A stretch of 32,198 nucleotides of DNA from contig JBBTZX010000049.1 in NCBI GenBank assembly GCA_038061125.1, forward strand, positions 1 through 32,198. Direction: 5' to 3'. Of the stretch, positions 3,288 through 25,902 are shown piece by piece (the first letter of the stretch is position 1; the number at the start of each line of letters is the position of its first letter). The stretch comes from Patescibacteria group bacterium. Its GTDB lineage: Bacteria; Patescibacteriota; Microgenomatia; Levybacterales; UBA12049. The notes below the pieces were generated by a model. It was not told where the DNA came from and did no database searches. It saw nothing but the letters and a program-made list of their open reading frames with translations. The position numbers and the translations under genes were made by a program.

Positions 3288-3317
3288 ATTCTATCTGATT
3301 TGGTATAATTAACGCAA
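3288..3317 (-). promoter_or_regulatory. Putative sigma70-type promoter for ileS (TTGCGT-18-TAGAAT), with the -10 box 7 nt from the ATG
   Basis: Read on the minus strand, TTGCGT (3317-3312), an 18 nt spacer, TAGAAT (3293-3288), then 7 nt (taataat) before the ileS ATG at 3280. Motif match only, in AT-rich DNA. Confidence 0.4.
3301..3309 (+). promoter_or_regulatory. Putative extended -10 promoter (TGgTATAAT) for tRNA-Val and possibly the downstream GT4 gene
   Basis: TG at 3301-3302 and TATAAT at 3304-3309, 8 nt upstream of the mature tRNA 5' end at 3318. Confidence 0.45.
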
Positions 3318-3389
3318 GGACTCGTAGCTCAGCGGTAGAGCGCTTCATTCACATTGAAGAAGTCAGAGGTTCGAATCCTCTCGGGTCCA
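3318..3389 (+). tRNA. tRNA-Val (anticodon CAC)
   Basis: Hand-folded cloverleaf: acceptor GGACTCG/CGGGTCC (one G-U pair), D arm GCTC-AGCGGTA-GAGC, anticodon arm CTTCA-TTCACAT-TGAAG, variable loop AAGTC, T arm AGAGG-TTCGAAT-CCTCT, discriminator A. CCA is not encoded. Confidence 0.9.
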
Positions 3390-3390
3390 C

Positions 3391-7232: not shown

Positions 7233-7236
7233 AAGA

Positions 7237-8976: not shown

Positions 8977-9872
8977 AACGATTTTATTTTATTGAGTTTT
9001 TCTTTTGGGTATCTCAAAAACTCTACAATCATAAACAAGACAAGTCTTGCTAGAATTCCTGCATAAACAACGAAGTTTATTAAAAAAAAGTTTTGACTTG
9101 AATAATGTTTATTGTAATACAAAAAGATTCCTTTATGGAAAAGAAGTAACGCTTTTAGCTTAAATTTACTTGTTGTCCCTCCGTGCATGTGTATTACTTT
9201 TACTTTTGGAAAATAGTATATATCCCATCCCGCTTTTATTGCCCTATAGCAATAATCTGTGTCTTCGCAATATATGAAAAATTCTTCATCCATATGTCCG
9301 ATTTGCTCTATTAATTTTTTTCTTATGAGCATAAATGCCCCAAGACCCCCAACCTTTGCGGGTTCGTTGTCCGAGAGATAAGTCATATAATAATTTATAG
9401 ATTTGATTTTCGGAAATAATTTATATAAACCAAATGGCTGAAAAAATGAGTTTTTCAAGGTAGGTATTGCATGCTTACAGGGGAGATCCAAAGATCCGTC
9501 ATGTCTTATAATTTTGCAGCCGCAGATGCCAATGTTTGGATTTTTGTTCATAAAATCTATTAGCAGGCCTATCGATGTGTCCTTTGTAAAGTTTACGTCG
9601 GAATTTAATTGAAGAACATATTTCCCCTTGGCAAGTTTTGTTCCTATATTACAGCTCTTGCTATATCCTAAATTTTTAATATTTCTTATTGCTTTAATTT
9701 TAGGAAAATATTTATTGATCATTCCTACAGAGTCGTCTGTAGACCCGTCATCTACAACAATAATCTCAAAGGAAATGTTTCTAGCGTTTTTATAAATAGA
9801 AGAAAGTGTATTTTTCAGTATTTTACTGGTGTTATAATTACAGATGACTATTGATATGTCTGGAAGTTTCAT
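8973..9872 (-). CDS. GT2-family (GT-A fold) glycosyltransferase with a C-terminal hydrophobic segment
   Basis: ISIVICNYNTSKILKNTLSSI...EIIVVDDGSTDDS...NLGYSKSCNIGTKLAKGKYVLQLNSDV and EEFFIYCEDTDYCYR are typical GT2 (WbbL/COG1216-like) motifs. The C-terminal FFLINFVVYAGILARLVLFMIV is predicted TM. Confidence 0.85.
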   Translation of the reverse strand: MKLPDISIVICNYNTSKILKNTLSSIYKNARNISFEIIVVDDGSTDDSVGMINKYFPKIKAIRNIKNLGYSKSCNIGTKLAKGKYVLQLNSDVNFTKDTSIGLLIDFMNKNPNIGICGCKIIRHDGSLDLPCKHAIPTLKNSFFQPFGLYKLFPKIKSINYYMTYLSDNEPAKVGGLGAFMLIRKKLIEQIGHMDEEFFIYCEDTDYCYRAIKAGWDIYYFPKVKVIHMHGGTTSKFKLKALLLFHKGIFLYYNKHYSSQNFFLINFVVYAGILARLVLFMIVEFLRYPKEKLNKIKSL

Positions 9873-11272: not shown

Positions 11273-12238
11273 ATGAAGATTTCATTTATAGCAACGGTAT
11301 TAAATGAAGGAGATAATGTAGTACGGTTACTTAATTCTATTATTAATCAATCTAAAAAAGCAGATGAAATTATAATTGTTGATGGGGGCTCAACCGACAG
11401 TACGCTGTCGGTAATTTCAAATTTCATCCTGAGTAGAATCGAAGGACAAATTTCAAATAAAAATATAAAATTTAAATTTATTGTGAAAAAAGGGAATAGG
11501 GCGGTAGGAAGAAATGAGGCGATAAGACAAGCTACGGGAAATATTATAGTTTGTTCTGACGCAGGATGCATATTGGATAAAAATTGGATTGAAGAAATTA
11601 CGAAGCCATTTCATAAATTAGATGTAGATGTTGTTTCTGGTTACTATAAAGGAAAATCTAGTAATTCTTTTGAGAAGTGCATAATTCCTTATTTTTTAGT
11701 AATGGAAGACAGAATAGATCCGAATAATTTTTTCCCGGCGACAAGATCAATGGCATTTAGAAAATTGATATGGGAAAAAGTGGGTGGCTTTCCGGAAAAA
11801 TTTAGCAATAACGAAGATTATATATTTGCTCAAAACCTTAAAAAAATAAAAGCAAAAATCGTTTTTGAGAAAAATGCGATAGCTTATTGGTTGCCAAAAA
11901 AAAATCTTAAAGAAGCGCTTATTTCTTTTTATCGTTTTGCAAAAGGCGATGCGGAGTCAGGAATTTTTAGGCCCAAGGCAATTATCATTTTGATGCGTTA
12001 TCTAATTGGATTAATTCTCCTGTTTGCTTTTGTAATGTTAAAAACATACATAATACTTAATGCATTATGCTTAATGCTTATTTTATATATTCTCTGGTCA
12101 ATATTTAAAAATTATAAATACGTAAAATTATTTGCTGCTGTATATTACTTGCCTTTAATTCAAATAACAAGCGATCTAGCAATCATACTGGGAACTATTG
12201 AGGGGTTTTCATTATCCAAAAATAATAATGGCGAATAA
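11273..12238 (+). CDS. GT2-family glycosyltransferase with a C-terminal TM hairpin (polyprenyl-phosphate-sugar synthase-like architecture)
   Basis: ISFIATVLNEGDNV...EIIIVDGGSTDST...GNRAVGRNEAIRQATGNIIVCSDAGC, then two or three C-terminal TM helices (AIIILMRYLIGLILLFAFVML...LCLMLILYILWSIF). The track ORF starts at a TTG at 11264; the ATG at 11273 (MKISFI) is preferred. Confidence 0.8.
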   Translation: MKISFIATVLNEGDNVVRLLNSIINQSKKADEIIIVDGGSTDSTLSVISNFILSRIEGQISNKNIKFKFIVKKGNRAVGRNEAIRQATGNIIVCSDAGCILDKNWIEEITKPFHKLDVDVVSGYYKGKSSNSFEKCIIPYFLVMEDRIDPNNFFPATRSMAFRKLIWEKVGGFPEKFSNNEDYIFAQNLKKIKAKIVFEKNAIAYWLPKKNLKEALISFYRFAKGDAESGIFRPKAIIILMRYLIGLILLFAFVMLKTYIILNALCLMLILYILWSIFKNYKYVKLFAAVYYLPLIQITSDLAIILGTIEGFSLSKNNNGE

Positions 12239-13880
12239 ACAGTTTTTCTTAAAAAAAATCGTTACCTCTTCGTTATTTGTTAGTATTTTATTTTTTTTAT
12301 TATTACAATTGCCAATATTTAATTACGGATTTAATTACAGAGATGAGGGATATTTATTAAATAATGCCCAAAGAATAAATAGCGGAGAAATACCCTATGT
12401 GGATTTTTCTTTAGCAATTACTCCTGGTTCATTCTATATTCAGGCACTTGCTCTAAAACTATTTGGAAATTATATTATTACAGATAGAATTCTATATGTC
12501 TTGTGTATAATTTTAGTATTGGTACTAAACTCTAGACTTTTTAAGTTTCCCAAACACTGGAACTATATCTCTTTATTGTTTTTGGCATTAATATATACAG
12601 GAATAGGAGCTTTTGCATCTTACAATATGTATGGAGTAGTTTTTGTTATGACTGCACTTTTTCTATTCCATAAACTAAAAAATGGTAACAAAACCTACTT
12701 TTATTCTTTTTTAATTGGATTAACAAACTCTTTAGTATTTATTACAAAACAAACTTATGGTTTTATTTTCTTTTTTACTTTATTATTTTTGATAGTTTAT
12801 TCTACCAGACGCAAAGACCGGTTTAAAAATATACTTTTTTACTTCTTTGGTAGCTTACTTCTGCCAGCTATTATCCTTTTGGTTTTTTATTTCAATGGGA
12901 TATTGAATAAATTAGTATATAACGTTTTTTATTTTGCACTGGCTGTAAAAAATGACCGTTTGCCCTTTATTACTACTTCAATCCTATTCATTCCATTGTT
13001 CATGTTTATGGTTAACTTTATCAAAAAAATCACTCCTAAAAAATTGGGAATAGTATTCATTTTCTTCACATTATTCATTTTTTTATATATTTTTATATCT
13101 CCAGCAAGAATTTCCTATCTACAGTCTTTTTATAAACAGCAAACAATTTATTATTTTTTACTTTTTTTTACAGTTCCCCTTACTTTAATAAGTTTATTCT
13201 TTAAATCAAAAAATGCATATAAAAAACTAATAGTAATTATATCTATTGAAGCGTTTAGTCTTTTTTTAGCCAGTGCTTTTTCAGGTAGAGATTATACTAC
13301 TGTTATTGTTACAGCTCCCTTATATATTCCTTTGTTTCTGTATTTGTTTACAATTAAATACAAAAAATTCAAGTTGCCGTTAAGCAATATCTCTATATCC
13401 CTATTGCTAATTTTATTTATATTTCCATCTATTTTATCATTGACTGAAATCTATGGTAAGTTATATGGGATTGGATATAGGAAAGAAATTTATGCAAATT
13501 TAGATATTAAAGAGGCAAAATATATAAAAATTCCTATAAATCAAAAAAATGACTTGGAATTAGTAACTAATTACATTAAAAGTAATGCATCGTCGAGCAC
13601 TAAATTACTTTGTGTTCCGTATTGTTCATTTTGGAACTTTTTAGGCGAAAGAAAAAATGCATCATATTTTAGTTTTTTCTATAAGTTCAATAAGGATGAT
13701 CAAGATAGGGTTATAGACGATCTTAAGAGAAATGATGATTCAGTAATATTGGTTCAGAGGCCAAACGTAATTGAGAAAGAGGCTAATTATGAAGACGAAA
13801 ATCTTAATTTATTGAAAACATTTATATATAAAAAACATAAATTAGTTAAAACAACAGAAAATTTCTATATTTATAGATAA
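12228..13880 (+). CDS. GT-C fold membrane glycosyltransferase (ArnT/PMT GT39/GT83-like)
   Basis: Polytopic protein. The first-loop acidic motif NYRDEGYLLNNAQRINSGEIPYVDF follows TM1, and there is a soluble C-terminal domain. The track start is a TTG at 12198; the ATG at 12228 (MANKQFF) is preferred and overlaps the GT2 stop by 11 nt. Confidence 0.7.
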   Translation: MANKQFFLKKIVTSSLFVSILFFLLLQLPIFNYGFNYRDEGYLLNNAQRINSGEIPYVDFSLAITPGSFYIQALALKLFGNYIITDRILYVLCIILVLVLNSRLFKFPKHWNYISLLFLALIYTGIGAFASYNMYGVVFVMTALFLFHKLKNGNKTYFYSFLIGLTNSLVFITKQTYGFIFFFTLLFLIVYSTRRKDRFKNILFYFFGSLLLPAIILLVFYFNGILNKLVYNVFYFALAVKNDRLPFITTSILFIPLFMFMVNFIKKITPKKLGIVFIFFTLFIFLYIFISPARISYLQSFYKQQTIYYFLLFFTVPLTLISLFFKSKNAYKKLIVIISIEAFSLFLASAFSGRDYTTVIVTAPLYIPLFLYLFTIKYKKFKLPLSNISISLLLILFIFPSILSLTEIYGKLYGIGYRKEIYANLDIKEAKYIKIPINQKNDLELVTNYIKSNASSSTKLLCVPYCSFWNFLGERKNASYFSFFYKFNKDDQDRVIDDLKRNDDSVILVQRPNVIEKEANYEDENLNLLKTFIYKKHKLVKTTENFYIYR

Positions 13881-13916
13881 TGATTGTGCCAAAATGTTAA
13901 AAACTTTAAAGAAATT

Positions 13917-14750
13917 ATGAAAAGTGTTAGTTCGAAAATATACGATAAAAAATATTACCTTACCGTATGTCCAGGATCGGAAGAGTTTAAGGAGAGCGGT
14001 GGGAAAAAATTGCATCTGCGATTAGAAAAACTATTACAGCAAATTACTATAGATAAATCTACTAAGATTCTCGATGTAGGTTGCGGTAGGGGAGATATAG
14101 CTCTTTATTTAGGCAGAAATTCCGAAGAAGCGATTGGCATAGATTACTCAAAAGAGGCTATTGAATTGGCGGATTCTATCAAGGAAAATTTTCCACTTGC
14201 CATACGGAAAAAAGTACATTTTAAAGTTATGAATATTAAAACATTATCTTTTCCCGATAATTATTTTGACGTAGTTATTTGTATAGACGTATTGGAGCAT
14301 TTGTATAAAGATGAGGTAAAACAGGCAATGCGGGAAATAAAGAGAGTCCTTAAGAACAACGGTGTTCTTTTTGTGCATACTGGAACAAATAGAATACTTC
14401 ATGATTATACATATAGGTACTATATTTACCCTTTAAATAAACTGATAACTAAAATTGACAGTTTTATTAGGGGAGTTACCTATGATTCCTTACCGGAAGA
14501 TCCTAGAACGGTCGATGAGAAAAGGCAACATGTCAATGAACCAACATATTTCTATCTTAAGAATCTATTCTCTAAATTTAAATTTGAAGGTAAGATAAAA
14601 ACTGAAATTGGCTACATAAAGCCAGTAAAAAGCGTTAAAACAATTATTTATAATTTCCTTATCGCCTTCTATCCGCTTTCAGCCATTTACCCTTTTTCTG
14701 TTATTTTTGGCTGGGTATTTATCTGTAAGTTAAAAAACAATAAGCAATAA
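13917..14750 (+). CDS. Class I SAM-dependent methyltransferase
   Basis: ILDVGCGRGDIALYL (motif I), IGIDYS, FDVVICIDVLEHL, and a hydrophobic C-terminal tail. The track start is a TTG at 13884; the ATG at 13917 (MKSVSSKIYDKKYY) is preferred. Confidence 0.8.
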   Translation: MKSVSSKIYDKKYYLTVCPGSEEFKESGGKKLHLRLEKLLQQITIDKSTKILDVGCGRGDIALYLGRNSEEAIGIDYSKEAIELADSIKENFPLAIRKKVHFKVMNIKTLSFPDNYFDVVICIDVLEHLYKDEVKQAMREIKRVLKNNGVLFVHTGTNRILHDYTYRYYIYPLNKLITKIDSFIRGVTYDSLPEDPRTVDEKRQHVNEPTYFYLKNLFSKFKFEGKIKTEIGYIKPVKSVKTIIYNFLIAFYPLSAIYPFSVIFGWVFICKLKNNKQ

Positions 14751-14782
14751 CTCTGAATAAGCAATTTTCATACAGTCTAATT

Positions 14783-16435
14783 ATGAAATTCAAAAATAAA
14801 CTGAAGAATAACTTTTCTTGTTTAATGAATTGCATTTTACGTAATAAATTTCTTTTAAGTGTTTTAGTGATTTATGCGATTCTAATGTTAAGCGTAATCG
14901 ATTGGGGAACACCGAATGTGTCGCATCCATTTAATTATCAAATGGATGAATGGCATCAATTGCAAGCGGTAAGATCAACATTTAAATATCTTTCACCAAA
15001 TGTTTCCGGTTCTGCTCATGGAACAATGCTGCATTTCATATTATCGGGCATATATTTAATCCCATTTGTTATATTTGGAGCAATAAATCCATTTGCGATT
15101 AAATCTTCTGTTGATTTTTTGGATTTGCAGCAAAAGCTTTTTCAAATATTAAGATTAAACACTCTTATTTTTGGATTACTTTCTATATTTTTTATCGCAA
15201 AGATAGCAAAGGAACATCTTAAGATTAATCAAAACATGGCGATAATTCTGTTTGTTGTTACTCCTTTATGGCTATCTCTTAGTAATTATTTTAAGTACGA
15301 TATTGCGCTCGTATTTTGGATAACCATATCTCCGTATTATTTATTAAAATTTGCAGAAAAACCGACATTGCGAAATTATTTAATTGCCGGAGCCTTCTGT
15401 TCCCTAGCTGTTGCTACTAAAATTAGTGCTTTTCCTTTATTCATAGCGTATGTAGTGTCATTTTTTTTGTTCAAAAAGAAAGGAAAAATTATATTTAAAG
15501 ATTTAGGCATAGGGTTGTTTATTTTTTTTATAACTTTTCTAATTCTAGGCATTCCGGATTTGATATTGGGAAAGGGCAATTGGGATGAATTTTTATATTC
15601 AAATTTGGTTTCCGGTTCAAGCGGATATAGTAATGTCTTAACGGGATTTAGTAGTTGGTGGCAATATTTACTTTTTAAAGTTTTACCTATAGATTTCGGA
15701 TATGGATTTCTCCTTATCTATATATTTGGGATAATATATTGGATAATCTTATTTCTCAAGAACATTCTAAATAAGAGATTATTTTTATTTAAAAATGAAT
15801 TATTTCTGTTCTTCTGTTTTTTATTATTTTTTCTTAGTTTGGTTCCTCTCAAGCTGGGAGGAAATGGTAATCGACTGTTAATTTTACTGCCATTTTTCAC
15901 CCTTTTAGCAGCTTCTTTCTTGCAAAGAATAAAAAGTGTTATCGCAAACAACAACGTGGCAATAGAAGGATTACTAATAGTTATTTTTATTGTTCAATTT
16001 TATCAATCAATAATAATGGTATATGTTAAGTGGCTGCCTGATGTTAGACAGACATCTTCTCAGTGGATACAAAAGCATATAGAAAAAGATACGTTAATCG
16101 GCATAGAAAATATTCCCATATATCAGTTGTTACCCGATATTGTTGTTAAGGAATTTTATTCAAGGGACAAGAATTATGATTATCAAATAATCGATGCGTC
16201 AAGTAAGACTATCCCGTCGCTAGTAATCGTGACAGATAAAGAGCTTGATCTTAATTATTTTAAAGAATCAGCTAAGAAACGATTGCTGAAAAGATTGAAG
16301 GAAGAAGAATATAGGGAGATAATAGAATTTAAACCGCCAAAAATTTTATACTTATTCACGGGAAATGAACTGAATTATTCTAGTTCCGGTTTAGCTCCGA
16401 TATCGACGATATCTATATTCAAAAAAGATAAATAG
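14783..16435 (+). CDS. GT-C fold membrane glycosyltransferase (ArnT/PMT-like)
   Basis: 550 aa polytopic protein. The first-loop motif after TM1 is DWGTPNVSHPFNYQMDEWHQLQAV (acidic DE), and there is a soluble C-terminal domain. Confidence 0.65.
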   Translation: MKFKNKLKNNFSCLMNCILRNKFLLSVLVIYAILMLSVIDWGTPNVSHPFNYQMDEWHQLQAVRSTFKYLSPNVSGSAHGTMLHFILSGIYLIPFVIFGAINPFAIKSSVDFLDLQQKLFQILRLNTLIFGLLSIFFIAKIAKEHLKINQNMAIILFVVTPLWLSLSNYFKYDIALVFWITISPYYLLKFAEKPTLRNYLIAGAFCSLAVATKISAFPLFIAYVVSFFLFKKKGKIIFKDLGIGLFIFFITFLILGIPDLILGKGNWDEFLYSNLVSGSSGYSNVLTGFSSWWQYLLFKVLPIDFGYGFLLIYIFGIIYWIILFLKNILNKRLFLFKNELFLFFCFLLFFLSLVPLKLGGNGNRLLILLPFFTLLAASFLQRIKSVIANNNVAIEGLLIVIFIVQFYQSIIMVYVKWLPDVRQTSSQWIQKHIEKDTLIGIENIPIYQLLPDIVVKEFYSRDKNYDYQIIDASSKTIPSLVIVTDKELDLNYFKESAKKRLLKRLKEEEYREIIEFKPPKILYLFTGNELNYSSSGLAPISTISIFKKDK

Positions 16436-16470: not shown

Positions 16471-17709
16471 ATGGGATATTCGAAGCAAGCTGTTGTCGGA
16501 ATTTCGTGGATTGGGGCATTCAGAGTGTTCTCAAGATTGATAGCATTTCTAAGAGTTGTTGTATTGGCAAGGTTGCTTGTTCCTGCGCAATTTGGCGTGT
16601 TTGGTATTGCCTCGATGGCGTTGGCTCTTCTGGAGATATTAACAGAAACAGGGATAAACGTTTTCCTCATACAGGAGAAAGAAGACGTGGATTCCTATGT
16701 AAACGATGCTTGGTTTGTGTCTATAATTAGGGGGTTATTAATTGCTATTTTTATAATCTTAACGGCTCCCTTAGTTGTTTCATTTTTTAAAATTCCTCAA
16801 TCTTACAGTTTGATACTTTTAATTAGTGCAGTTCCTCTCATAAGAGGTTTTATCAATCCATCAATTGTCAAATATCAGAAAAATTTGCAATTCAACAAGG
16901 AATTTCTTCTAAGATCTGCAATATTTTGCTTTGATTCGCTGGTTGCAATTATAGTCTCTTTGATCACTCGAAGTGCGATAGGTTTGGTTTTCGGGTTGAT
17001 AGCGGGAGCAATTCTTGAAGTGATCTTGTCGTTTATATTAATTAAACCTACGCCAAGCATACAGTTCAATCTTCAAAAAATTAGCAAGATATTTCATAGA
17101 GGCAAGTGGGTAACATTATACGGAATTTTAAATTTTGCTGCCTCAAAAGGGGACAGTGTCATTATAGGCAGAATACTTGGGTCAGGCCCGCTTGGAATTT
17201 ATCAGATGGGATACACTATCTCGACAATGCCTGTTAGCGAAATAGCGGATACTGCTAACAGAGTGACATTTCCCGTATACACAAAGATAGCGGGAGATGT
17301 AAATAGATTGAAAAAAGGATTTACGAGAACAATTTTATTCGTTTCTGCTATTTCAATCCTAATCGGAACTTTAATCTTCTTTTTTCCGAAAGATTTATTT
17401 ATTTTAGCATTTGGTCAGAAATGGGCAGATACAATGATTGTATTGAAGCCGCTTGCGATTTTCGGCGTAATTAGGGCAATTTCGGGTACAACGTCTTCTC
17501 TATTCTTATCCGTTGGTAGGCAAAATTACGTTGCGGGCATGACATTTTTAAGATTTGCAGCTTTAGCTCTCACAATAGTACCGCTTACGATAGTCTATGG
17601 AATAGAGGGAACTAGCTATTCTATTCTTATTTCAGGAATTGTTGAAGTGCCTTTGGTAGCTTATTATGTTTGGTTAATTTTTAAAACTGACGGAACAAGC
17701 AAGAATTAG
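16471..17709 (+). CDS. MOP-superfamily oligosaccharide/polysaccharide flippase (Wzx-like)
   Basis: 412 aa with about 12 TM segments. The N-terminus GISWIGAFRVFSRLIAFLRVVVLARLLVPAQFGVFGIASMALALLEILTETGINVFLIQ is the typical Polysacc_synt-type signature. Confidence 0.8.
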   Translation: MGYSKQAVVGISWIGAFRVFSRLIAFLRVVVLARLLVPAQFGVFGIASMALALLEILTETGINVFLIQEKEDVDSYVNDAWFVSIIRGLLIAIFIILTAPLVVSFFKIPQSYSLILLISAVPLIRGFINPSIVKYQKNLQFNKEFLLRSAIFCFDSLVAIIVSLITRSAIGLVFGLIAGAILEVILSFILIKPTPSIQFNLQKISKIFHRGKWVTLYGILNFAASKGDSVIIGRILGSGPLGIYQMGYTISTMPVSEIADTANRVTFPVYTKIAGDVNRLKKGFTRTILFVSAISILIGTLIFFFPKDLFILAFGQKWADTMIVLKPLAIFGVIRAISGTTSSLFLSVGRQNYVAGMTFLRFAALALTIVPLTIVYGIEGTSYSILISGIVEVPLVAYYVWLIFKTDGTSKN

Positions 17710-19001: not shown

Positions 19002-20114
19002 ATGAAAATCGCGATTTTCTATAATTTACCTTTTGGTGGGGCGAAACGTGTTGTTTTAGAACAGGTTAAAGGTTTGAAAAGTTTAGGACACGTCGTTGAC
19101 GTTTATACATTGGAGAAGGAACGCGATTCATTTAGTCCCGGTTTTGTTGCAGATAACGAATATAAATATGATTATTCCCCTTTTGATATAAGGATTCCCA
19201 TACTCTCTAGGATTTTTGGAGATCTTCAAATGTTTTATCGCCTTAGAAGGCTTCATGAAAAAATAGCTTGGGATATAGATAATCGTGGGTACGATATCGT
19301 TCTTGTTCATACGGATACCCTTACTCAAGCGCCGTTTATATTACGATTTCTCAAAACAAAAAGCGTTTATTTTTGCTTAGAACCGCTAAGAATGGTGTAT
19401 GAGTATTCCTTGAGGGTTTCCGATAATCTTGGTTTTTTTAATAAGCTCTACGAATCAATAAATAGACTAGTTAGGAAAAAAATTGATCGGGACAATGCAA
19501 GAAAAGCAGATTTCGTGTTAGCGATTAGTTTGTTTGGGAGAGAGTACATGATTCAGGCATTTGATCTTTATCCAAAAATTTCCTACCTTGGCGTTGACCA
19601 AACTGTTTTTAGACCATTGAAGAGAAAGAAAAAGAATCAAGTTCTTTTTGTTGCCGAAAGGGAATATGTATATGGATATGATTTAGCTCAAATTGCAATT
19701 AAGCTTATTCCGGAGAACATAAGACCTAATTTCAAAATTGTATTTGGTACAAAAAAAGAACAGAGAATATCCGAAGAGGAACTGGTCAAAACTTACAATG
19801 AATCCTTAGTAACATTATCATTAAGTAGATTTGATACTTTCGGATTGGTTCCATTGGAATCAATGGCTTGTGGAACACCCGTTATTGTCTTAAATGTTGC
19901 AGGATACAGGGAAACAATACTGAATGGTAAAGTAGGATTTACTGTCGACTTTGATCCCAAAGAGATTGCAGAAAAAATCATGTGTTTCGTAAAAGATCCT
20001 TTACTTGCTGTAAGAATGGGAAGAGAGGGAAGGAAATGGGTTGAGAATAATTGGACATGGGAGAAAAGTGCAGAAAAATTAGAGAAATATTTAAAAACTG
20101 TAAGTAAAAAATGA
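19002..20114 (+). CDS. GT4-family (GT-B fold) glycosyltransferase
   Basis: MKIAIFYNLPFGGAKRVVLEQVKGLKSLGHVVDVYT at the N-terminus and FGLVPLESMACGTPVIVLNVAGYRETI (EX7E region) in the C-terminal half. Confidence 0.85.
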   Translation: MKIAIFYNLPFGGAKRVVLEQVKGLKSLGHVVDVYTLEKERDSFSPGFVADNEYKYDYSPFDIRIPILSRIFGDLQMFYRLRRLHEKIAWDIDNRGYDIVLVHTDTLTQAPFILRFLKTKSVYFCLEPLRMVYEYSLRVSDNLGFFNKLYESINRLVRKKIDRDNARKADFVLAISLFGREYMIQAFDLYPKISYLGVDQTVFRPLKRKKKNQVLFVAEREYVYGYDLAQIAIKLIPENIRPNFKIVFGTKKEQRISEEELVKTYNESLVTLSLSRFDTFGLVPLESMACGTPVIVLNVAGYRETILNGKVGFTVDFDPKEIAEKIMCFVKDPLLAVRMGREGRKWVENNWTWEKSAEKLEKYLKTVSKK

Positions 20115-22339
20115 AAATAAAACTATCGGTCATTTACGTTTATTACAATACGCCGGAGGAATTACAATTATCCATTAAATCTTTGGAGCGAGCTTGTGTC
20201 AAAATACCCTACGAAGTAATAATCGTAAACAATAATTCTCAAAAAGGCATTCCTAAAAAGATTTATGATAAGTCTAATATAACGATAATAAATAACGATA
20301 CTAATTACGGATACGGTAAAGGTTTAAATCAAGGCGCCGGTATCGCAAAAGGGGAATATCTGCTTTTGGTAAATCCGGATGTGGAGTTTACGGAAAATTC
20401 AATAAAACATCTTTTAGGTAAGATAGAAAGCGATTCAAGAATCGGAGCGGTTGCCCCTCAATTAATAGATGAAAAAGGGAATATTTTGCAAAGCATTAGT
20501 GGTATGCCTTATTTGCCCCAGAGTTTATTTGTATTTTCATTTCTAGATAAAATATGGGGTAAGAATCCGTTTTTGGTCAAATATCATAATTTAAATCTTG
20601 ATAGAAGCAAAGAACACGAAGTAGATGTAGCTGGTGGGGCATGTATGATGGTTAGAAGATCTATATTCGATAAAGTTGGTGGATTCGATGAAAGATTTTT
20701 TATGTATTTCGAAGAGGCTGACTTTTGTTCCCGAATAAAACAATTAGGGTGCTCGATAATTTACTATCCGAAGGCAAAAGCGATACACCTTGTCGGACGA
20801 AGCAGTCAGGATAAGGAGTGGATAGAAAAAACATTTGAACAAAGCAGATTCAAATTTTTTAAAAAATATCACGGTTTAATTCCTGCCTTATTGGGGGAAT
20901 TCGCTTTGAGGTTTTTTAAACCGTTAAATATGCTGTTATTAACAATATTAGCTCTTTCAGCTTTTCTGAATTTATATAAATTAAATGAGCAAATGATTTT
21001 TATCGGTGATCAGGGATGGTTTTACCTATCGGCAAGAGACTTGCTTTTAACAGGTGAAATTCCCTTGGTTGGGATAACCTCAAGCCATACGTGGCTTCAC
21101 CAGGGACCATTATGGACATACATTCTTGCTGTAATTTTTTGGTTATTTAAATTTAATCCCATTGCACCCGCATATTTTACAGGATTACTTAGTACAGTAA
21201 CTGTTTTTCTAGTTTATAAAGTCGGAAGAATTCTTTTTTCCAAGAATGTAGGTTTGATAGGAGCAGTGCTGTATGCTACATCACCGTTGATTATTATTAA
21301 TTCTCAAATGCCATACCATACTAGTCCTATTCCCTTATTAACTTTGGGTTTAATTTACTCAGTTTTTAAATGGATAAAAGGAAATGTATACTTTTTTCCC
21401 ATAGCTATTCTTTTTATGGCATTATTATATAATTTTGAGCTCGCAACGCAAATATTCTGGTTTCCAATTGGGTTTATTTTTATCGTAGGCTTTCTAGGAA
21501 AGAAACAATGGGCGAAGGCCGTATTGAGAGCAGGGATTCTATTTACATCTTTAGCTTTTTTTATCCTGCCGATGGTCCCAATTTTTATTTACGATATTAA
21601 TCATAAATTTGCGCAAACTTTAAAATTTTTCGTATGGTTTCCGTACAGAATAGCGAGCCAATTATTGAATATAAAAAGCGCACTTCTGTTAACTAAAACG
21701 CAAGAGTCTTTTGTTTCTATGATTAGTTTTTTTTCGGCTAATTATCAACAGCTTGTTTTTGCGTCAAATAATTTAGCGTCATTACTTATTTTATCTTTAA
21801 GTATTATATGCATAACGTTTTATTTATTAAAGACTAGGAATATAAACAATCTTTTTTCCCCAATTAGTTTACTGATAGTATTTATAATCATCCCTTTAGT
21901 GGGGTTTTTTCTCAACATGATAGCTTCGGGTGCCTATCTTCCTTTATTTTTTCCGAGTGTAATTATTATTACGGCGTGGGTGTTTGACAGAATAATGCAT
22001 AAGAAATATTTGTTTTTTCCTATTTTGGCTTTAGTTTTTTATATTGCAGCGTTAAACACTCTGTTTGTTTTAGATAAGACTAAAAGTAAACCTGCTTACG
22101 GTATTTATTTTTCGGAGAGGCTAAATGCCGTAAAAACGATATTGAAAGAAACCGATGGGGAAAGTTATAGAATTAGAGGAAGTGGTCCCGGAAGTCAGTT
22201 TGAAAGCTTTACGATGAATTATGAATATATTGTCTGGTGGTTGGGTAAGCCGCCATCGGAAAAATCTGCAAAAAATCTATTCACAATCAGCGAGGATAAA
22301 AATGGAGTTGTTATAAATAAGGAGATATTTAATAAATAA
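20111..22339 (+). CDS. Bifunctional fusion: N-terminal GT2 (GT-A) domain plus C-terminal GT-C (ArnT/PMT-like) polytopic domain
   Basis: About aa 1-260: SVIYVYYNT...EVIIVNNNS...NYGYGKGLNQGAGIAKGEYLLLVNPDVEF and FFMYFEEADFCSR. From about aa 270, TM1 is followed by FIGDQGWFYLSARDLLLTGEIPLVG and about 12 TM segments, then a soluble C-terminus. This is one uninterrupted 742-aa ORF; its ATG overlaps the GT4 stop (ATGA). Confidence 0.8.
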   Translation: MKIKLSVIYVYYNTPEELQLSIKSLERACVKIPYEVIIVNNNSQKGIPKKIYDKSNITIINNDTNYGYGKGLNQGAGIAKGEYLLLVNPDVEFTENSIKHLLGKIESDSRIGAVAPQLIDEKGNILQSISGMPYLPQSLFVFSFLDKIWGKNPFLVKYHNLNLDRSKEHEVDVAGGACMMVRRSIFDKVGGFDERFFMYFEEADFCSRIKQLGCSIIYYPKAKAIHLVGRSSQDKEWIEKTFEQSRFKFFKKYHGLIPALLGEFALRFFKPLNMLLLTILALSAFLNLYKLNEQMIFIGDQGWFYLSARDLLLTGEIPLVGITSSHTWLHQGPLWTYILAVIFWLFKFNPIAPAYFTGLLSTVTVFLVYKVGRILFSKNVGLIGAVLYATSPLIIINSQMPYHTSPIPLLTLGLIYSVFKWIKGNVYFFPIAILFMALLYNFELATQIFWFPIGFIFIVGFLGKKQWAKAVLRAGILFTSLAFFILPMVPIFIYDINHKFAQTLKFFVWFPYRIASQLLNIKSALLLTKTQESFVSMISFFSANYQQLVFASNNLASLLILSLSIICITFYLLKTRNINNLFSPISLLIVFIIIPLVGFFLNMIASGAYLPLFFPSVIIITAWVFDRIMHKKYLFFPILALVFYIAALNTLFVLDKTKSKPAYGIYFSERLNAVKTILKETDGESYRIRGSGPGSQFESFTMNYEYIVWWLGKPPSEKSAKNLFTISEDKNGVVINKEIFNK

Positions 22340-22340
22340 G

Positions 22341-23093
22341 ATGATAAGCGCAGTCGTTCTTACTAGGAATGAGGAGAATAGTATCATTGATTGCTTAGAA
22401 TCAATGGGCTGGTGCGATGAGATAATTGTTGTTGATGATTTTTCTCAAGATAGAACAATTGAGATTATAGGTGGGCTAAGGAATAAAAAAATTTCTGTTT
22501 TTAAACGTGCTTTAAATAAAGATTATTCAAAACAGCGAAATTTTGGCTTGTCGAAAACAAGCTATGAATGGATATTATTTGTTGATGCAGACGAAAGAGT
22601 TTCACCGTTTCTTAGGGATGAAATATTAAAAGCAACAAGTACGAGAAGTAAATATGACGGTTATCTGATAAGAAGAAGGGATATTTTGTGGGGTAAAGAA
22701 TTAAGATACGGTGAATTAGGAGATGTTAAGCTTTTAAGGTTGGCAAAGAAAGGTAAGGGGGAGTGGAGCGGTCGCGTACATGAAGAGTGGGAAATAAGAG
22801 GAGCAGTTGGGCAACTTAATTCTTCCTTGATTCATTATCCTCACCAAACTATTACGGAGTTTCTAAGAGAGATAAATTTTTATACGGATATAAGGGCAAA
22901 AGAATTATTCGATAATGGGACAAGGGTTTCATGGTTGTCAATACTGTTATACCCAAAAGCTAAATTCATCCTAAATTATTTTTTAAGATTAGGTTTTTTA
23001 GACGGCATACAGGGATTAATAGTGGTCATTTTTATGAGTTTTCACTCTTTTTTAGTTAGGAGTAAGCTGTGGAAACTGCGGCAAGGAAGATAA
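22341..23093 (+). CDS. GT2-family glycosyltransferase (WaaE/KdtX-like small GT2)
   Basis: ISAVVLTRNEENSIIDCLES...EIIVVDDFSQDRT...KQRNFGLSKTSYEWILFVDADERVS, and the C-terminal LGFLDGIQGL motif typical of this subgroup. Starts 1 nt after the preceding stop. Confidence 0.8.
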   Translation: MISAVVLTRNEENSIIDCLESMGWCDEIIVVDDFSQDRTIEIIGGLRNKKISVFKRALNKDYSKQRNFGLSKTSYEWILFVDADERVSPFLRDEILKATSTRSKYDGYLIRRRDILWGKELRYGELGDVKLLRLAKKGKGEWSGRVHEEWEIRGAVGQLNSSLIHYPHQTITEFLREINFYTDIRAKELFDNGTRVSWLSILLYPKAKFILNYFLRLGFLDGIQGLIVVIFMSFHSFLVRSKLWKLRQGR

Positions 23094-23104
23094 CTATTTA
23101 TATT

Positions 23105-24682
23105 ATGTTTACGATTGCCGTTTTGATAGGAATCTACTCATATTTTATTTTCGTTTTGGGCTTACTGGGACTTTTGTATAGAGAAAACGTTATTATTTTT
23201 TCCTTACTGTATATTGCAGTTATAGTTTTAGCCTACAGGAAAAAAATAATCAATGTTCTTAAATTAATTCGTATCGAAAAAACTCCCAACATAAATTTTA
23301 GTTTTGTATTAATTACGTTAATTGTTTCCCTCGCATTGGTAAATTTAATTGGAGTTCTTGGTCCGGAGCTTGGTTTCGATGCGTTATGGTATCACTTAAC
23401 GCTTCCTAAAATTTATCTAAATACACACATGATTACACATATTCCGGGCGGGTTATTATATTACTCCGATATGCCAAAGCTTACGGAGATGCTCTATGTC
23501 GGAGCATTATCTTTTGGGAGCGAAACATTAGCAAAATTAGTTCATTTTGCGTTTGGAATACTTTCCGCTATTGCGTTGTATAAACTCTCAAGAAATCTTT
23601 TTAGTAAAACATATTCTTTTCTAGCGGTTCTAATTTTTTATAGTAATTTGGTGGTAGCGTGGCAGTCAACAACTGCCTATATTGATCTTGCTAGAACCTT
23701 TTTTGAAATAATGGCGCTTTGGGGATTTGTTAATTGGTGGAAAAAAGGAGAGAGAAAGTGGCTCATAGAGTCTGCTGTAATGCTGGGACTTTCTATTTCA
23801 GTTAAACTTCTTGCCGTAGAATCATTGCCTATATTCTTAATTTTAATAGGGCTATGCACGTATACATATAAAAAATCCATAAAATATTTTTTGATAAATA
23901 TATCTAGCTATTGGTTTATGGCTCTTTTGATTCCACTGCCATGGTTTATTTTTTCATTTATCCATACGGGAAATCCTATTTACCCATTTTTTTCTGCTGT
24001 TTATAATGTAGGATTAAACCTTCGATTTATAAACCCGTTTATCCATAGATCCGATTCCATTTCTGTTGTTTATATTCTAATTCCAGCTTTTCTTCCGTTT
24101 GTTTTTAGAAAATTAAAGCGTGAAATTAAGATTATTTTCCTATATTCATTTTTAGGATTTATTGTTTGGTATCTGACCCCAAAAACTGACGGCGGAAGAT
24201 TTATGCTTCCCTATCTGCCGGCATTTTCTTTGCTTTTGGTTTCAATGCTGGTTTTTCTAAAGAACAATTTATTTAAAAAAATCATTATTTGTTTTATTGT
24301 TCTAACCTCAATTGTTTCCATCATTTACAGAGGAGCTGCTGATTATAAATATTTACCTGTAATTTTAAGTAAAGAATCAAAGAGCGATTTTTTAGCCAAA
24401 CATCTTAATTTTTCGTACGGAGATTTTTACGATACTGACGGATATTTTGCAAAAAATATAACACGAAACAATAAAGTTCTCCTATATGGATTTCACAATC
24501 TATATTACGTAGATTTCCCATTTATAGATTCGTCATGGGTTAAAAAGGGAGATACTTTCGATTATATCGCAGTTCAAAATTCAATAATTCCCAAAAGATT
24601 TTCGTATTGGAATCTTGTATACTACAACAAGAAAACTAACGTAAAACTTTATTCTTTAGGAGGGCAAAAATGGGTTTATTAA
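23105..24682 (+). CDS. GT-C-like polytopic membrane glycosyltransferase
   Basis: Many TM segments, the first-loop motif GPELGFDALWYHLTLPKIYL, and a soluble C-terminal domain. The track start is a GTG at 23069, inside the upstream gene; the ATG at 23105 (MFTIAVLIG) is preferred. Confidence 0.6.
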   Translation: MFTIAVLIGIYSYFIFVLGLLGLLYRENVIIFSLLYIAVIVLAYRKKIINVLKLIRIEKTPNINFSFVLITLIVSLALVNLIGVLGPELGFDALWYHLTLPKIYLNTHMITHIPGGLLYYSDMPKLTEMLYVGALSFGSETLAKLVHFAFGILSAIALYKLSRNLFSKTYSFLAVLIFYSNLVVAWQSTTAYIDLARTFFEIMALWGFVNWWKKGERKWLIESAVMLGLSISVKLLAVESLPIFLILIGLCTYTYKKSIKYFLINISSYWFMALLIPLPWFIFSFIHTGNPIYPFFSAVYNVGLNLRFINPFIHRSDSISVVYILIPAFLPFVFRKLKREIKIIFLYSFLGFIVWYLTPKTDGGRFMLPYLPAFSLLLVSMLVFLKNNLFKKIIICFIVLTSIVSIIYRGAADYKYLPVILSKESKSDFLAKHLNFSYGDFYDTDGYFAKNITRNNKVLLYGFHNLYYVDFPFIDSSWVKKGDTFDYIAVQNSIIPKRFSYWNLVYYNKKTNVKLYSLGGQKWVY

Positions 24683-25902
24683 AAACATTTTTCATTATAT
24701 TTATTCTTTTTTTGTTTCCAATGGGGGAGATCGCCAGATATCAGTTTGGTAACGGTATATCTATAACTGCTATTGACGCAGGAGCAATACTGCTTATTCT
24801 TATTTGGTTAATCTCAAACATTATACGAGGAAAAAGAAAACTAATTTTTAAATCTTCTTTGACCAATCCAATTCTTCTGTTTGTTGCAATATGCATATTG
24901 TCTTTGATTGTAAATCTATCGAATCTCAAAAGCTCAGAACTTTTCGTATCCAGCCTTTATCTTATAAGGTGGATTATGTACGCACTTATTTACTTCGTGG
25001 TTTCGGGATTTGACAAAAAATTTAAGGCAAAAATACCTATTCTTATGGTTATTTCGGGCTTACTCATTTTGGGGGGCGGTTATATTCAATACTTTTTTTA
25101 TCCCAGCCTTCGCAATTTATATTATCTTGGGTGGGATGAACATTTGTATAGGATGTTTTCCGTATTCTTGGATCCAAATTTTGCCGGTGCATTTTTTGTC
25201 CTTTTATTATTCCTTATGTTTGGCTTAATTGTTTATTGTATGAAAAGTAGAAAATTAATTTGTACCATAGCGTTATTGTTGCTGGCTGGCTTTACGGCTA
25301 TAGGAATCTTTTTAACTTATTCAAGAAGCGCATTCGTTATGTTTTTTGCGGGAATATTTATATTCCTCGTTTTAACAAACAAGAAAAAAGTGATGATTCC
25401 CGTTCTTGCTATCTGTCTAATTGTATTTGCCATTTCTTCAAAAAATTTCAATATAGAAAATACAAATCTCCTAAGAACTGCTTCTGGCGTGGCAAGATTA
25501 GATTCGGCAAATAAGGCAGTTACTGTAATTAGAGATCATCCGTTGTTTGGCGTTGGATTTAATGCTTATAGATACGCACAGATACGATACGGATTCGTTG
25601 GAGATAAGGAATTAATGGTAAGTCACGCTGCTGCAGGAACGGATAATAGCTTTTTATTCGTATTGGCAACCACAGGATTGGTTGGTTTTACAGCCTACGC
25701 TTATCTTTGGTATAGAATATCAAGCAATCTATATGCACTTTTTAAACAAAATATAGGTTTAGACAAAATAATACCTTTAGTTTTATTTTCTTCTTACGTA
25801 GGTATTTCTCTAGCAAGCTTTTTTATAAATGCTTTATTTTACCCTTTCATTATAGTTTGGATATGGATATTGTTGGGGTACTGCGAAAAGACTAGGGGTT
25901 AA
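24670..25902 (+). CDS. Wzy_C-domain protein (O-antigen ligase/polymerase or O-oligosaccharyltransferase-like)
   Basis: Polytopic protein. It has LTYSRSAFVMFFAGIFIF and a large loop HPLFGVGFNAYRYAQ...HAAAGTDNSFLFVLATTGLVG, the pattern shared by WaaL/Wzy/PglL-type proteins. Overlaps the upstream gene by 13 nt. Confidence 0.7.
   Translation: MGLLKTFFIIFILFLFPMGEIARYQFGNGISITAIDAGAILLILIWLISNIIRGKRKLIFKSSLTNPILLFVAICILSLIVNLSNLKSSELFVSSLYLIRWIMYALIYFVVSGFDKKFKAKIPILMVISGLLILGGGYIQYFFYPSLRNLYYLGWDEHLYRMFSVFLDPNFAGAFFVLLLFLMFGLIVYCMKSRKLICTIALLLLAGFTAIGIFLTYSRSAFVMFFAGIFIFLVLTNKKKVMIPVLAICLIVFAISSKNFNIENTNLLRTASGVARLDSANKAVTVIRDHPLFGVGFNAYRYAQIRYGFVGDKELMVSHAAAGTDNSFLFVLATTGLVGFTAYAYLWYRISSNLYALFKQNIGLDKIIPLVLFSSYVGISLASFFINALFYPFIIVWIWILLGYCEKTRG

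What the first reader, a model, noticed from the sequence alone, without database searches (positions are those of the whole stretch)
20111..22339. Single-polypeptide GT2::GT-C fusion (Rosetta-stone link between donor synthesis and extracytoplasmic transfer)
One uninterrupted 742-aa ORF joins a complete cytoplasmic GT-A/GT2 domain to a roughly 470-aa polytopic domain. The GT2 part has VIIVNNNS, LLLVNPDVEF and FEEADFCSR. The polytopic part has a GT-C-like first loop (FIGDQGWFYLSARDLLLTGEIPLVG) and a soluble C-terminal domain. In characterised systems these two activities are separate proteins. A covalent fusion argues that the neighbouring unfused GT2/GT-C pairs also act together. It also raises a mechanistic question, because the lipid-linked product of the cytoplasmic domain must be flipped before the GT-C domain of the same chain can use it. 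The GT2 domain looks more like WbbL/COG1216-type transferases than GtrB/DPM-type synthases. It could therefore instead extend a lipid-linked glycan that the GT-C half then transfers.
Basis: partly seen in the sequence, partly recalled or inferred. Interest (0 to 1): 0.65.

Follow-up and report, generated by a model that had tools for sequence, protein, structure and literature searches.

The report
Fused inside-outside membrane glycosyltransferase, Levybacteria
A real gene, conserved in one group of tiny uncultured (CPR) bacteria, joins a cytoplasmic sugar-adding enzyme to an outward-facing membrane sugar transferase; the cytoplasmic half is probably not the enzyme that makes the lipid-linked sugar donor, so this is an uncharacterised variant of known cell-surface glycan pathways rather than a new kind of machine.

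Summary
The 742-aa ORF (20111-22339, +) is real and uninterrupted. Independently assembled contigs from two studies span it without indels. More than 100 full-length homologues share the architecture. All six sampled genera of the window's own family carry it, it is sporadic elsewhere in the class, and it was not found in the rest of the phylum.

- **N half (1-232):** a GT2/GT-A domain of the COG1216/WbbL/ppGalNAc-T-like type. It is not DPMS/GtrB/ArnC-like.
- **C half (271-742):** a PMT_2-type GT-C. It has about 11 TM helices, an outward first loop with an invariant Asp (D300), and a small outward C-terminal domain.
- **Evolution:** the fused state is ancestral. Relatives show overlapping split gene pairs, loss of the GT2 half with the GT-C kept in the same place, and the same GT-C family fused instead to a GT4 or to another GT2 of the same cluster.
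- **Donor supply:** the genome encodes canonical DPMS/ArnC-like synthases elsewhere. One is a DPMS::GtrA fusion next to the closest GT-C paralogue.

Best reading: a cytoplasmic glycan-extending transferase tethered to an outward-facing GT-C of the same Wzx/Wzy_C pathway, not a donor synthase fused to its user. A fold search of the GT-C half alone could not be done. The architecture appears uncharacterised in the literature I could search. Interest is moderate.

The parts
20111..22339 (+). Whole fusion gene: 742 aa, GT2 (GT-A) joined to a PMT_2-type GT-C
   Evidence: ORF. Pfam. AF2 model built with a 46-sequence alignment has pLDDT 87.6 and pTM 0.81. Contigs of independent runs span it.
20111..20806 (+). 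Cytoplasmic GT2/GT-A catalytic domain (residues 1-232), COG1216/WbbL/ppGalNAc-T-like. NPD (N88-D90) is at 20372-20380 and FEEAD (E201-D204) at 20711-20722.
   Evidence: Pfam PF00535, PF10111 and PF02709. N88, D90, E201, D204 and H226 are invariant in 46 homologues. The PDB profile matches cover the whole domain for chondroitin synthase K4CP and ppGalNAc-Ts, but only about the first 110 residues for DPMS, GtrB and ArnC. The 50 listed Foldseek hits are all GT-A enzymes: ppGalNAc-Ts, WrtF and a Leptospira GT (6p61).
20813..20914 (+). Two amphipathic interface helices (residues 235-254 and 256-268) that link the GT2 domain to TM1. The first is rich in K and R.
   Evidence: AF2 secondary structure. 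Charge and hydropathy count.
20921..22072 (+). Polytopic GT-C core (residues 271-654), about 11 TM helices, N terminus inside and C terminus outside
   Evidence: AF2 helices combined with the positive-inside rule. The PMT_2 match lies at residues 331-484, nt 21101-21562. A PDB profile hit to A. fulgidus AglB has E 0.001 over the segment 327-390.
20975..21163 (+). First extracytoplasmic loop EL1 (residues 289-351) with the FIGDQGWFYLSARD motif. The putative catalytic Asp D300 is at 21008-21010.
   Evidence: F297, G299, D300, G302, Y305, A308 and R309 are invariant in 46 homologues. The position is D or E in all 26 C halves, including distant Woesebacteria.
22073..22336 (+). Small extracytoplasmic alpha/beta C-terminal domain (residues 655-742) with the conserved GSQFESFTMNYEY..WW motif. 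No family match.
   Evidence: AF2 secondary structure. Conservation. Outside location is inferred from the 11-TM topology.
19002..20114 (+). Upstream GT4 gene (GT4b), whose stop overlaps the fusion's start by ATGA. Its orthologue is itself fused to this GT-C family in other lineages.
   Evidence: Pfam. P0193 is a GT4::GT-C fusion, 35% identical to GT4b over 361 aa.
22341..23093 (+). Downstream GT2 gene (GT2c, 250 aa). It lies directly downstream of the GT-C gene in the window and in all four relatives annotated here, whether that gene is fused or not.
   Evidence: Pfam. Synteny in L001, L020, L022 and L031.
23069..25902 (+). Rest of the operon: a PMT_2-type GT-C (23069-24682) and a Wzy_C-domain protein (24670-25902)
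   Evidence: Pfam. Gene starts and stops overlap.
16471..17709 (+). Wzx-type flippase (Polysacc_synt_3) of the cluster, the candidate translocase for the lipid-linked intermediate
   Evidence: Pfam E 5e-60. Conserved in L001, L020 and L031.

Best explanation
The gene encodes a bifunctional membrane glycosyltransferase of a Wzx/Wzy_C-type surface-glycan pathway in a Levybacteria-like CPR bacterium.

The N-terminal GT-A domain sits in the cytoplasm, held at the membrane by two amphipathic helices. It uses a nucleotide sugar to add a sugar to a polyprenyl-(di)phosphate-linked saccharide, as WbbL or WpsC do. It does not make a polyprenyl-phosphate monosaccharide donor.

The intermediate is flipped by a separate flippase; the Wzx homologue in the cluster is the candidate.

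The C-terminal GT-C domain has its active site, including D300 in the first loop, on the outer face. It acts on the same glycan or on its final acceptor. Most likely it adds a single sugar from a polyprenyl-phosphate sugar made by one of the DPMS/ArnC-like synthases encoded elsewhere in the genome. I put this at roughly 60:40 over the alternative that it transfers the flipped oligosaccharide itself.

The fusion arose from a translationally coupled gene pair. It serves to anchor and co-localise two steps of one pathway.

Shown: the architecture, its conservation, the domain types, the fission and loss history, and the alternative fusion partners.
Inferred: the topology, the substrates and the order of steps.
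For: - **Type of the GT2 half.** The best NCBIfam hits are MftF, EpsD, rhamnosyltransferase TIGR01556 and HpsN. There is no ArnC, GtrB or PpgS hit. The PDB profile aligns the whole domain to K4CP and ppGalNAc-Ts, but only about the first 110 residues to DPMS, GtrB and ArnC. None of the 50 listed Foldseek hits is a polyprenyl-phosphate sugar synthase. phmmer with E. coli ArnC gives E 0.0014 over the N-terminal part only.
- **Canonical synthases exist elsewhere in the genome.** C26_6556 and C59_574 align full length to ArnC (E 3e-44 and 7e-44). C33_4156 is a DPMS::GtrA fusion that overlaps by 4 nt the closest paralogue of the GT-C half.
- **The GT-C half works without this GT2.** Of 150 cluster representatives, 80 are stand-alone. 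In L020 and L031 the order is GT4, GT-C, GT2c, with the GT2 half simply missing. Their genomes hold only paralogue-level matches of 29-33%.
- **The same GT-C family is fused to other cytoplasmic transferases of the cluster.** P0193 and P0213 are GT4::GT-C, and the GT4 of P0193 is 35% identical to the window's GT4b. P0258 is GT2b-like::GT-C, 45% identical to GT2b.
- **Split pairs with overlapping stop and start** occur in L026 (4 nt) and L039 (22 nt).
- **The fused state is present in all deep clades**.
- **The GT-C half looks catalytic.** Conserved outward polar residues are D300, R309, H403, N441/E443, D495, Q502, T503 and W509.
- **Precedent.** In the lactococcal PSP pathway, cytoplasmic transferases extend GlcNAc-P-C55, a Wzx-type flippase exports it, and GT-C enzymes then act on it (PMC10821137).
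Against: - No biochemical data exist for any member.
- A COG1216-like GT2 takes the same position, directly upstream of or fused to a GT-C, that DPMS-like synthases take in classical pairs. Such adjacency recurs in this genome: GT2a with the PTPS_related gene in the window, and C59 12511-15191. A non-canonical donor synthase is therefore not excluded.
- No initiating phosphoglycosyltransferase or DPMS-type enzyme lies in the window, so the lipid-linked acceptor is unidentified.
- The fold of the GT-C half was not confirmed by a structure search. An hhalign comparison with a single E. coli ArnT sequence found nothing.
- The window protein has Asn where over 90% of homologues have the nucleotide-binding Asp (D40N).
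Confidence: 0.55

Rival explanations
1. Donor synthase fused to its user. The GT2 half makes a polyprenyl-phosphate sugar on the inner face. This is flipped, and the GT-C half of the same chain uses it as donor. The protein would be a single-chain version of the GtrB/GtrA/GtrC three-component system.
For: - The N-terminal position matches that of DPMS-like genes upstream of GT-C paralogues: C33 4156-5289 before 2633-4159, and C38 12908-13624 before 13575-15110.
- Split versions have overlapping genes.
- The fusion is conserved in 6 of 6 sampled genera of the family.
Against: - The GT2 subtype is not DPMS/GtrB/ArnC-like by sequence or fold.
- Dedicated synthases exist elsewhere in the genome.
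- The GT-C half is kept where the GT2 half and its orthologue are absent.
- The same GT-C family is fused to a GT4, a GT-B class with no known polyprenyl-phosphate sugar synthase (the last point is from my own knowledge).
Confidence: 0.12
2. The GT2 half extends a lipid-linked oligosaccharide, and after flipping the GT-C half itself uses that oligosaccharide as donor, transferring or polymerising it en bloc as WpsJ/WpsI or an oligosaccharyltransferase does.
For: - The GT2 half is WbbL/WpsC-like.
- There is a weak profile similarity to the archaeal oligosaccharyltransferase AglB (E 0.001; TIGR04154 E 0.0011).
- The lactococcal PSP pathway is a precedent (PMC10821137).
Against: - The closest in-genome paralogue is coupled to a DPMS::GtrA monosaccharide-donor module.
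- The Pfam match is to PMT_2, the profile that E. coli ArnT also matches. ArnT and the PMTs transfer monosaccharides (from my own knowledge).
- The operon already has a Wzy_C-domain protein for en bloc steps.
Confidence: 0.2
3. The polytopic half is only a membrane anchor or scaffold for the GT2 domain and has lost catalysis.
For: Different cytoplasmic transferases (a COG1216-like GT2, a GT2b-like GT2 and a GT4) are fused to the same membrane family, as would be expected for a docking platform.
Against: - Outward-facing polar residues are invariant (D300, R309, E443, D495, Q502/T503, W509).
- Stand-alone members are as common as fused ones (80 of 150). This argues for an activity of its own.
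Confidence: 0.05
4. Assembly or gene-calling artefact: two adjacent genes joined by an indel in the homopolymer-rich junction.
For: The junction has T6/A6 and T6 runs at 20855-20866 and 20912-20917. Genuinely split pairs exist in some relatives.
Against: - Contigs from independent runs and studies are identical, with no indels.
- More than 100 full-length homologues at 40-80% identity keep one frame.
- 6 of 6 sampled genera of the family have an open frame of 729-743 aa.
Confidence: 0.01

Closest known systems
Lactococcal pellicle polysaccharide (PSP) pathway: WpsA/B, WpsC-F, WpsG (Wzx-type), WpsH/I, WpsJ (PMC10821137)
   Same: Cytoplasmic Leloir transferases, including a rhamnosyltransferase, extend a polyprenyl-phosphate-linked saccharide. 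A Wzx-type flippase exports it. GT-C fold enzymes then act on it outside. The window cluster has the same kinds of parts: GT2s, GT4s, a Wzx homologue, several GT-Cs and a Wzy_C protein.
   Different: All PSP components are separate proteins. Here one cytoplasmic transferase is covalently joined to a GT-C. No WpsA/GacI-type initiator lies in the window. No product is known.
Three-component transmembrane glycosylation systems: GtrB/GtrA/GtrC, ArnC/ArnEF/ArnT, GacI/J/K/L, CsbB/GtcA/YfhO
   Same: A cytoplasmic GT2 and an outward-facing GT-C are encoded together. The GT-C half matches the same Pfam profile (PMT_2) at the same relative position as E. coli ArnT.
   Different: The GT2 half is not of the GtrB/ArnC/DPMS synthase type. 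There is no GtrA-type flippase in the window. The genome's true example of this system is the DPMS::GtrA plus GT-C pair on contig C33.
WbbL/COG1216-type GT2 transferases and GT27 ppGalNAc-transferases
   Same: The whole GT-A domain is similar, including the Glyco_transf_7C-like second half. The NPD and (E)ED motifs are present.
   Different: All NCBIfam scores are far below the family cut-offs (for example TIGR01556, 50 bits against 200). The known enzymes are soluble or peripheral and are not fused to a polytopic transferase.
M. tuberculosis Ppm1 (Rv2051c), cited from my own knowledge
   Same: It is a natural fusion of a GT2 catalytic domain to a polytopic membrane partner that is a separate, interacting protein in related species. 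This is a precedent for reading such fusions as functional links.
   Different: The Ppm1 GT2 is a genuine polyprenyl-phosphate mannose synthase, and its membrane partner is an Lnt-like domain, not a GT-C.

Membership tests
GT2 / GT-A fold (Pfam PF00535) | Profile match above the curated cut-off | tested here: met
   71.4 bits against a cut-off of 23.3, residues 6-189. Found in 46 of 46 homologues.
GT2 / GT-A fold (Pfam PF00535) | DXD-type metal and nucleotide-sugar motif, and an acidic catalytic region | tested here: met
   NPD (D90 invariant) and FEEAD (E201 and D204 invariant). The first nucleotide-binding Asp is Asn in this protein and in two close relatives (D40N).
GT2 / GT-A fold (Pfam PF00535) | GT-A fold | tested here: met
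   The AF2 model has pLDDT 87.6. Foldseek matches to ppGalNAc-T2, WrtF and 6p61 reach E down to 3e-10 at probability 1.00.
Polyprenyl-phosphate sugar synthases (DPMS/GtrB/ArnC/PpgS type) | Similarity over the whole catalytic domain to characterised synthases | tested here: not met
   Only about the first 110 residues align to DPMS 5mlz, GtrB 5ekp and ArnC. phmmer with E. coli ArnC gives E 0.0014 over the N-terminal part only, whereas two other genes of the same genome align full length at E 3e-44 and 7e-44. No NCBIfam ArnC or PpgS hit.
Polyprenyl-phosphate sugar synthases (DPMS/GtrB/ArnC/PpgS type) | Enzymatic formation of a polyprenyl-phosphate monosaccharide | not testable with these tools
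   Needs an in vitro assay.
GT-C superfamily, PMT_2/ArnT/PMT-like branch | Profile match to a GT-C family | tested here: met
   PMT_2 scores 26.5-27.7 bits (cut-off 26.1) in the window protein. It is found in 46 of 46 and 26 of 26 relatives, best E 5.5e-12. The match is collinear with that of E. coli ArnT, which itself scores only 37 bits.
GT-C superfamily, PMT_2/ArnT/PMT-like branch | Polytopic protein with a cytoplasmic N terminus and a first extracytoplasmic loop that carries a conserved acidic residue | tested here: met
   About 11 TM helices. All K/R-rich loops fall on one side. D300 is invariant, and the position is D or E in distant members. The topology is inferred, not measured.
GT-C superfamily, PMT_2/ArnT/PMT-like branch | Fold similarity to a solved GT-C structure | tested here: inconclusive
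The sequence profile hits AglB 3waj at E 0.001. hhalign against a single E. coli ArnT sequence found nothing.
Three-component (Gtr-type) glycosylation system | [quoted passage not shown] | tested here: not met
   The GT-C is present and a Wzx homologue lies 2.4 kb upstream, but the GT2 half is not a synthase type and there is no GtrA in the window.

The most novel reading that the evidence does not exclude
The protein is a self-contained trans-bilayer glycosylation machine. A non-DPMS-type GT-A charges polyprenyl phosphate, or a lipid-linked sugar, at the inner face. The polytopic domain of the same chain guides the lipid-linked product across the membrane. Its outward GT-C site then uses that product. 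Levybacteria would thus have invented a new class of donor synthase and would dispense with a separate flippase.
Probability: 0.07. Interest if true: 0.8.

Novelty: new variant of a known kind. Interest (0 to 1): 0.42.

Why it matters
GT-A and GT-C enzymes normally act on opposite faces of the membrane as separate proteins. A conserved covalent fusion shows that the inner-face and outer-face steps of one glycan pathway can be physically coupled. There are natural split, loss and partner-swap variants. The same GT-C family is fused to a COG1216-like GT2, to a GT2b-like GT2 or to a GT4.

This gives a ready-made comparative set for asking what such tethering is for. It also gives a tractable target (one chain, AF2 pTM 0.81) for structural work on how cytoplasmic and extracytoplasmic glycosylation are coordinated.

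It also highlights how heavily these 0.8-Mb CPR genomes invest in surface glycosylation: the genome gives 27 PMT_2 matches.

The finding does not, on present evidence, reveal a new mechanism.

Tried and rejected
- **Single-sequence AF2 model**: pLDDT 39, unusable. It was replaced by the model built with the alignment.
- **Foldseek of the whole model against the PDB**: all 50 listed hits belong to the GT-A half, so the fold of the GT-C half remains untested.
- **hhalign of the C-half alignment against a single E. coli ArnT sequence**: probability 1.3%, no signal. The template had Neff 1, so this is a weak negative.
- **PDB sequence search with the full-length profile**: no GT-C hit. The C-half profile gave only AglB at E 0.001.
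- **NCBIfam**: no family reached its cut-off for either half.
- **Literature searches** for GT2/GT-C or GT-A/GT-C fusions, CPR or Levybacteria glycosyltransferases and three-component systems: I found no description of this architecture. The library does not hold most subscription-journal papers.
- **Assembly artefact:** rejected.
- **D40N as a sign of an inactive GT2 half:** not adopted, because all other catalytic residues are intact and Asn recurs in relatives.
Full report
**Observation.** The window holds an uninterrupted 742-aa ORF at 20111-22339 on the + strand. Its ATG overlaps the TGA of the upstream GT4 gene as ATGA. The next gene, a GT2, starts 1 nt after its stop.

Pfam finds Glycos_transf_2 at residues 6-189 (E 1e-19) and PMT_2 at residues 331-484 (26.5 bits, cut-off 26.1).

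The gene lies in a large glycan cluster of a genome with about 33% G+C. The cluster contains:
- two GT4 genes;
- three further GT2 genes;
- two PTPS_related/YfhO-like and two PMT_2-type polytopic proteins;
- a 12-TM protein with no family match;
- four methyltransferases;
- a Wzx-type flippase (Polysacc_synt_3);
- a Wzy_C-domain protein.

**Is the fusion real?** Logan contigs of runs from two different studies (X1, X2) cover 19900-22500 with no differences. A third run (X3) crosses the junction with substitutions only and no indel. This holds although the junction has T6/A6 runs. One of these runs may be the source sample, so it is not fully independent.

Independent support comes from more than 100 public proteins of 720-750 aa that align over 99% of the length at 40-80% identity and carry the same two Pfam domains. 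The named ones are Candidatus Levybacteria, Roizmanbacteria, Parcubacteria and 'Patescibacteria group'.

In evenly drawn genome samples, 6 of 6 genera of the window's own family have the C half inside an open frame of 729-743 aa. The family is sporadic elsewhere in the class, both fused and stand-alone. It was not found (E <= 1e-40) in the sampled genomes outside the class. The artefact explanation is rejected.

**The N half.** An AF2 model built with 46 homologues is confident (pLDDT 87.6, pTM 0.81). The 50 Foldseek hits listed against the PDB are all GT-A enzymes: ppGalNAc-T2, -T3, -T4 and -T12, the fucosyltransferase WrtF and a Leptospira GT.

A profile search of PDB sequences aligns the whole domain (5-231) to chondroitin synthase K4CP and the ppGalNAc-Ts. 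DPMS, GtrB and ArnC match only the first 110 residues or so.

The best NCBIfam hits are MftF, EpsD, rhamnosyltransferase TIGR01556 and HpsN, all far below their cut-offs. There is no ArnC, GtrB or PpgS hit.

N88, D90 (the NPD motif), E201, D204 and H226 are invariant in 46 homologues. The window protein and two relatives have Asn where more than 90% have the first nucleotide-binding Asp. I do not read this as inactivation.

**The C half.** PMT_2 is matched by 46 of 46 full-length homologues and by 26 of 26 C halves, with best E 5.5e-12. E. coli ArnT matches the same profile at the same relative position with only 37 bits. The modest score of the window protein is therefore normal for this profile.

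A profile of the C halves hits the archaeal oligosaccharyltransferase AglB (3waj) at E 0.001 over the segment after the first loop.

Combining the AF2 helices with the positive-inside rule gives an 11-TM model:
- TM1 (271-288) runs from inside to outside.
- A 63-residue first loop holds two juxtamembrane helices and the invariant FIGDQGWFYLSARD motif. D300 is D or E in every member.
- All K/R-rich loops lie on the cytoplasmic side.
- All other conserved polar residues lie outside: H403, N441/E443, D495, Q502, T503, W509 and Y609.
- An 88-residue alpha/beta C-terminal domain lies outside.

hhalign against a single ArnT sequence found nothing.

**History of the fusion.** Related loci from species-representative genomes show full-length fusions in Levy-, Woese- and Gottesmanbacteria and in Microgenomates. 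They also show four other arrangements:
- *Split pairs.* In L026 the GT2 and GT-C ORFs overlap by 4 nt, and in L039 by 22 nt.
- *A GT2 followed by two GT-C paralogues,* in L022.
- *Stand-alone C halves in the syntenic place.* In L020 and L031 the order is GT4, GT-C, GT2c, with the GT2 half simply absent. Their genomes hold only paralogue-level matches of 29-33%.
- *Stand-alone orthologues of the N half,* at 46-54% identity, next to other genes.

A tree of the C halves places fused members in all three deep clades, with unfused ones nested among them. The well-supported branches force at least three changes of state, and the most parsimonious count is eight.

Among the 150 best 50%-identity cluster representatives of the C-half family:
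- 80 are stand-alone;
- 67 carry the same GT2 domain (60 of full fused size, six apparently truncated at the N terminus, and one 1092-aa protein);
- two are GT4::GT-C fusions;
- one is fused to a different GT2.

The GT4 of P0193 is 35% identical over 361 aa to the window's upstream gene GT4b. The GT2 of P0258 is 45% identical to the window's GT2b.

The GT-C has therefore been welded, in different lineages, to three different cytoplasmic Leloir transferases of the same cluster.

**Donor supply.** The 819-kb genome (85% complete) gives 27 PMT_2 matches. It also encodes canonical DPMS/ArnC-like synthases:
- C26_6556 and C59_574 align full length to E. coli ArnC (E 3e-44 and 7e-44). C98_273 also aligns over nearly its full length (E 1e-21).
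- There are shorter ones on C38.
- C33_4156-5289 is a DPMS::GtrA fusion (Pfam PF00535 plus PF04138). Its stop overlaps by 4 nt the start of C33_2633-4159, the closest in-genome paralogue of the GT-C half.

Small phosphoglycosyltransferases (Bac_transf) and WecA/MraY-type genes lie on other contigs.

**Mechanism.** These facts argue against the donor-synthase-plus-user reading:
- the GT2 half is of the wrong subtype;
- proper synthases exist elsewhere in the genome;
- the GT-C persists without this GT2;
- a GT-B enzyme can take the same fused position.

They fit a reading in which cytoplasmic glycan-extending transferases are tethered to an outward-facing GT-C of the same pathway. The closest characterised analogue is the lactococcal PSP pathway. 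There, cytoplasmic transferases extend GlcNAc-P-C55, a Wzx-type flippase exports it, and GT-C enzymes act on it outside (PMC10821137).

I favour, about 60:40, a monosaccharide transfer from a polyprenyl-phosphate sugar by the GT-C half. The reasons are that the closest paralogue is coupled to DPMS::GtrA, that the match is to PMT_2/ArnT-type enzymes, and that a separate Wzy_C protein is available for en bloc steps. The alternative is that the GT-C half transfers the flipped oligosaccharide itself.

A non-canonical synthase is not excluded. COG1216-like GT2 genes recur next to GT-C genes in this genome.

**Novelty.** Both domains are known kinds. The fused architecture is visible in public databases: one JGI product name reads 'GT2 family glycosyltransferase/4-amino-4-deoxy-L-arabinose transferase-like glycosyltransferase'. 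I found no paper that describes or characterises it.

Earlier notes of this scan report the same architecture in other Levybacteria genomes, with similar conclusions. They are not independent evidence.

My verdict is a real, conserved, uncharacterised variant of known surface-glycan machinery, of moderate interest.

Noticed in passing
whole genome G000; window 5475-8976, 14783-16435, 20111-22339, 23069-24682: An 819-kb, 85%-complete genome gives 27 PMT_2 (GT-C) matches, about 20 of them above the Pfam cut-off. They include a tandem array of four genes on contig C38 (20996-27266). This is an extreme investment in extracytoplasmic glycosylation for so small a genome.
   Followed up: partly
genome contig C33:2633-5289 (- strand): A 377-aa DPMS-type GT2 is fused to a GtrA/DPMS_TM flippase-like domain. 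Its stop overlaps by 4 nt the start of the closest paralogue of the fusion's GT-C half. This is a compact, classical three-component system in two genes.
   Followed up: partly
proteins P0193, P0213, P0258, P0121 (other metagenomes): The same GT-C family occurs with other partners. P0193 and P0213 are GT4::GT-C, and the GT4 of P0193 is 35% identical to window GT4b. P0258 is GT2b-like::GT-C, 45% identical to window GT2b. P0121 is a 1092-aa form with about 360 extra residues between the GT2 and GT-C parts.
   Followed up: partly
window 12198-13880 (+): A 560-aa protein with 12 hydropathy peaks has no Pfam or NCBIfam match and no paralogue in the genome. Its start overlaps the end of GT2b by 41 nt, and it is conserved in L001 (54% identity). 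It may be an unrecognised GT-C-like partner of GT2b.
   Followed up: partly
window 20228-20236 (residues 40-42 of the fusion): The first nucleotide-binding Asp of the GT-A fold, present in over 90% of homologues in the VVDND motif, is Asn here (VNNNS). The same change occurs in P0003 and P0010. It may reflect a change of nucleotide-sugar specificity.
   Followed up: partly
loci L001, L009, L011-L013 and others: Many TPA_asm records titled 'uncultured Gammaproteobacteria bacterium' carry loci syntenic with this Levybacteria-type cluster, in genomes of 0.8-1.1 Mb. The titles look like placeholder mislabels. L021 ('Sulfotelmatobacter') and L017 ('Actinomycetota') may be binning contaminants.
   Followed up: no
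genome G296:C2:143252-144658: A same-family genome has one in-frame TGA inside its fused gene (741-aa frame). This could be a sequencing error, a pseudogene or a recoded stop.
   Followed up: no
genome contig C59:12511-15191 (- strand); window 7237-9872 (- strand): COG1216-like GT2 genes that are paralogues of the fusion's N half overlap GT-C genes by 4 nt in two further places. On C59 the GT-C gene comes first. In the window, GT2a precedes the PTPS_related gene.
   Followed up: partly
genome contig C26:15388-17523 (+): A 711-aa PMT_2-type GT-C has a soluble C-terminal extension of about 250 residues that was not assigned to any family. It is another elaborated GT-C in this genome.
   Followed up: no
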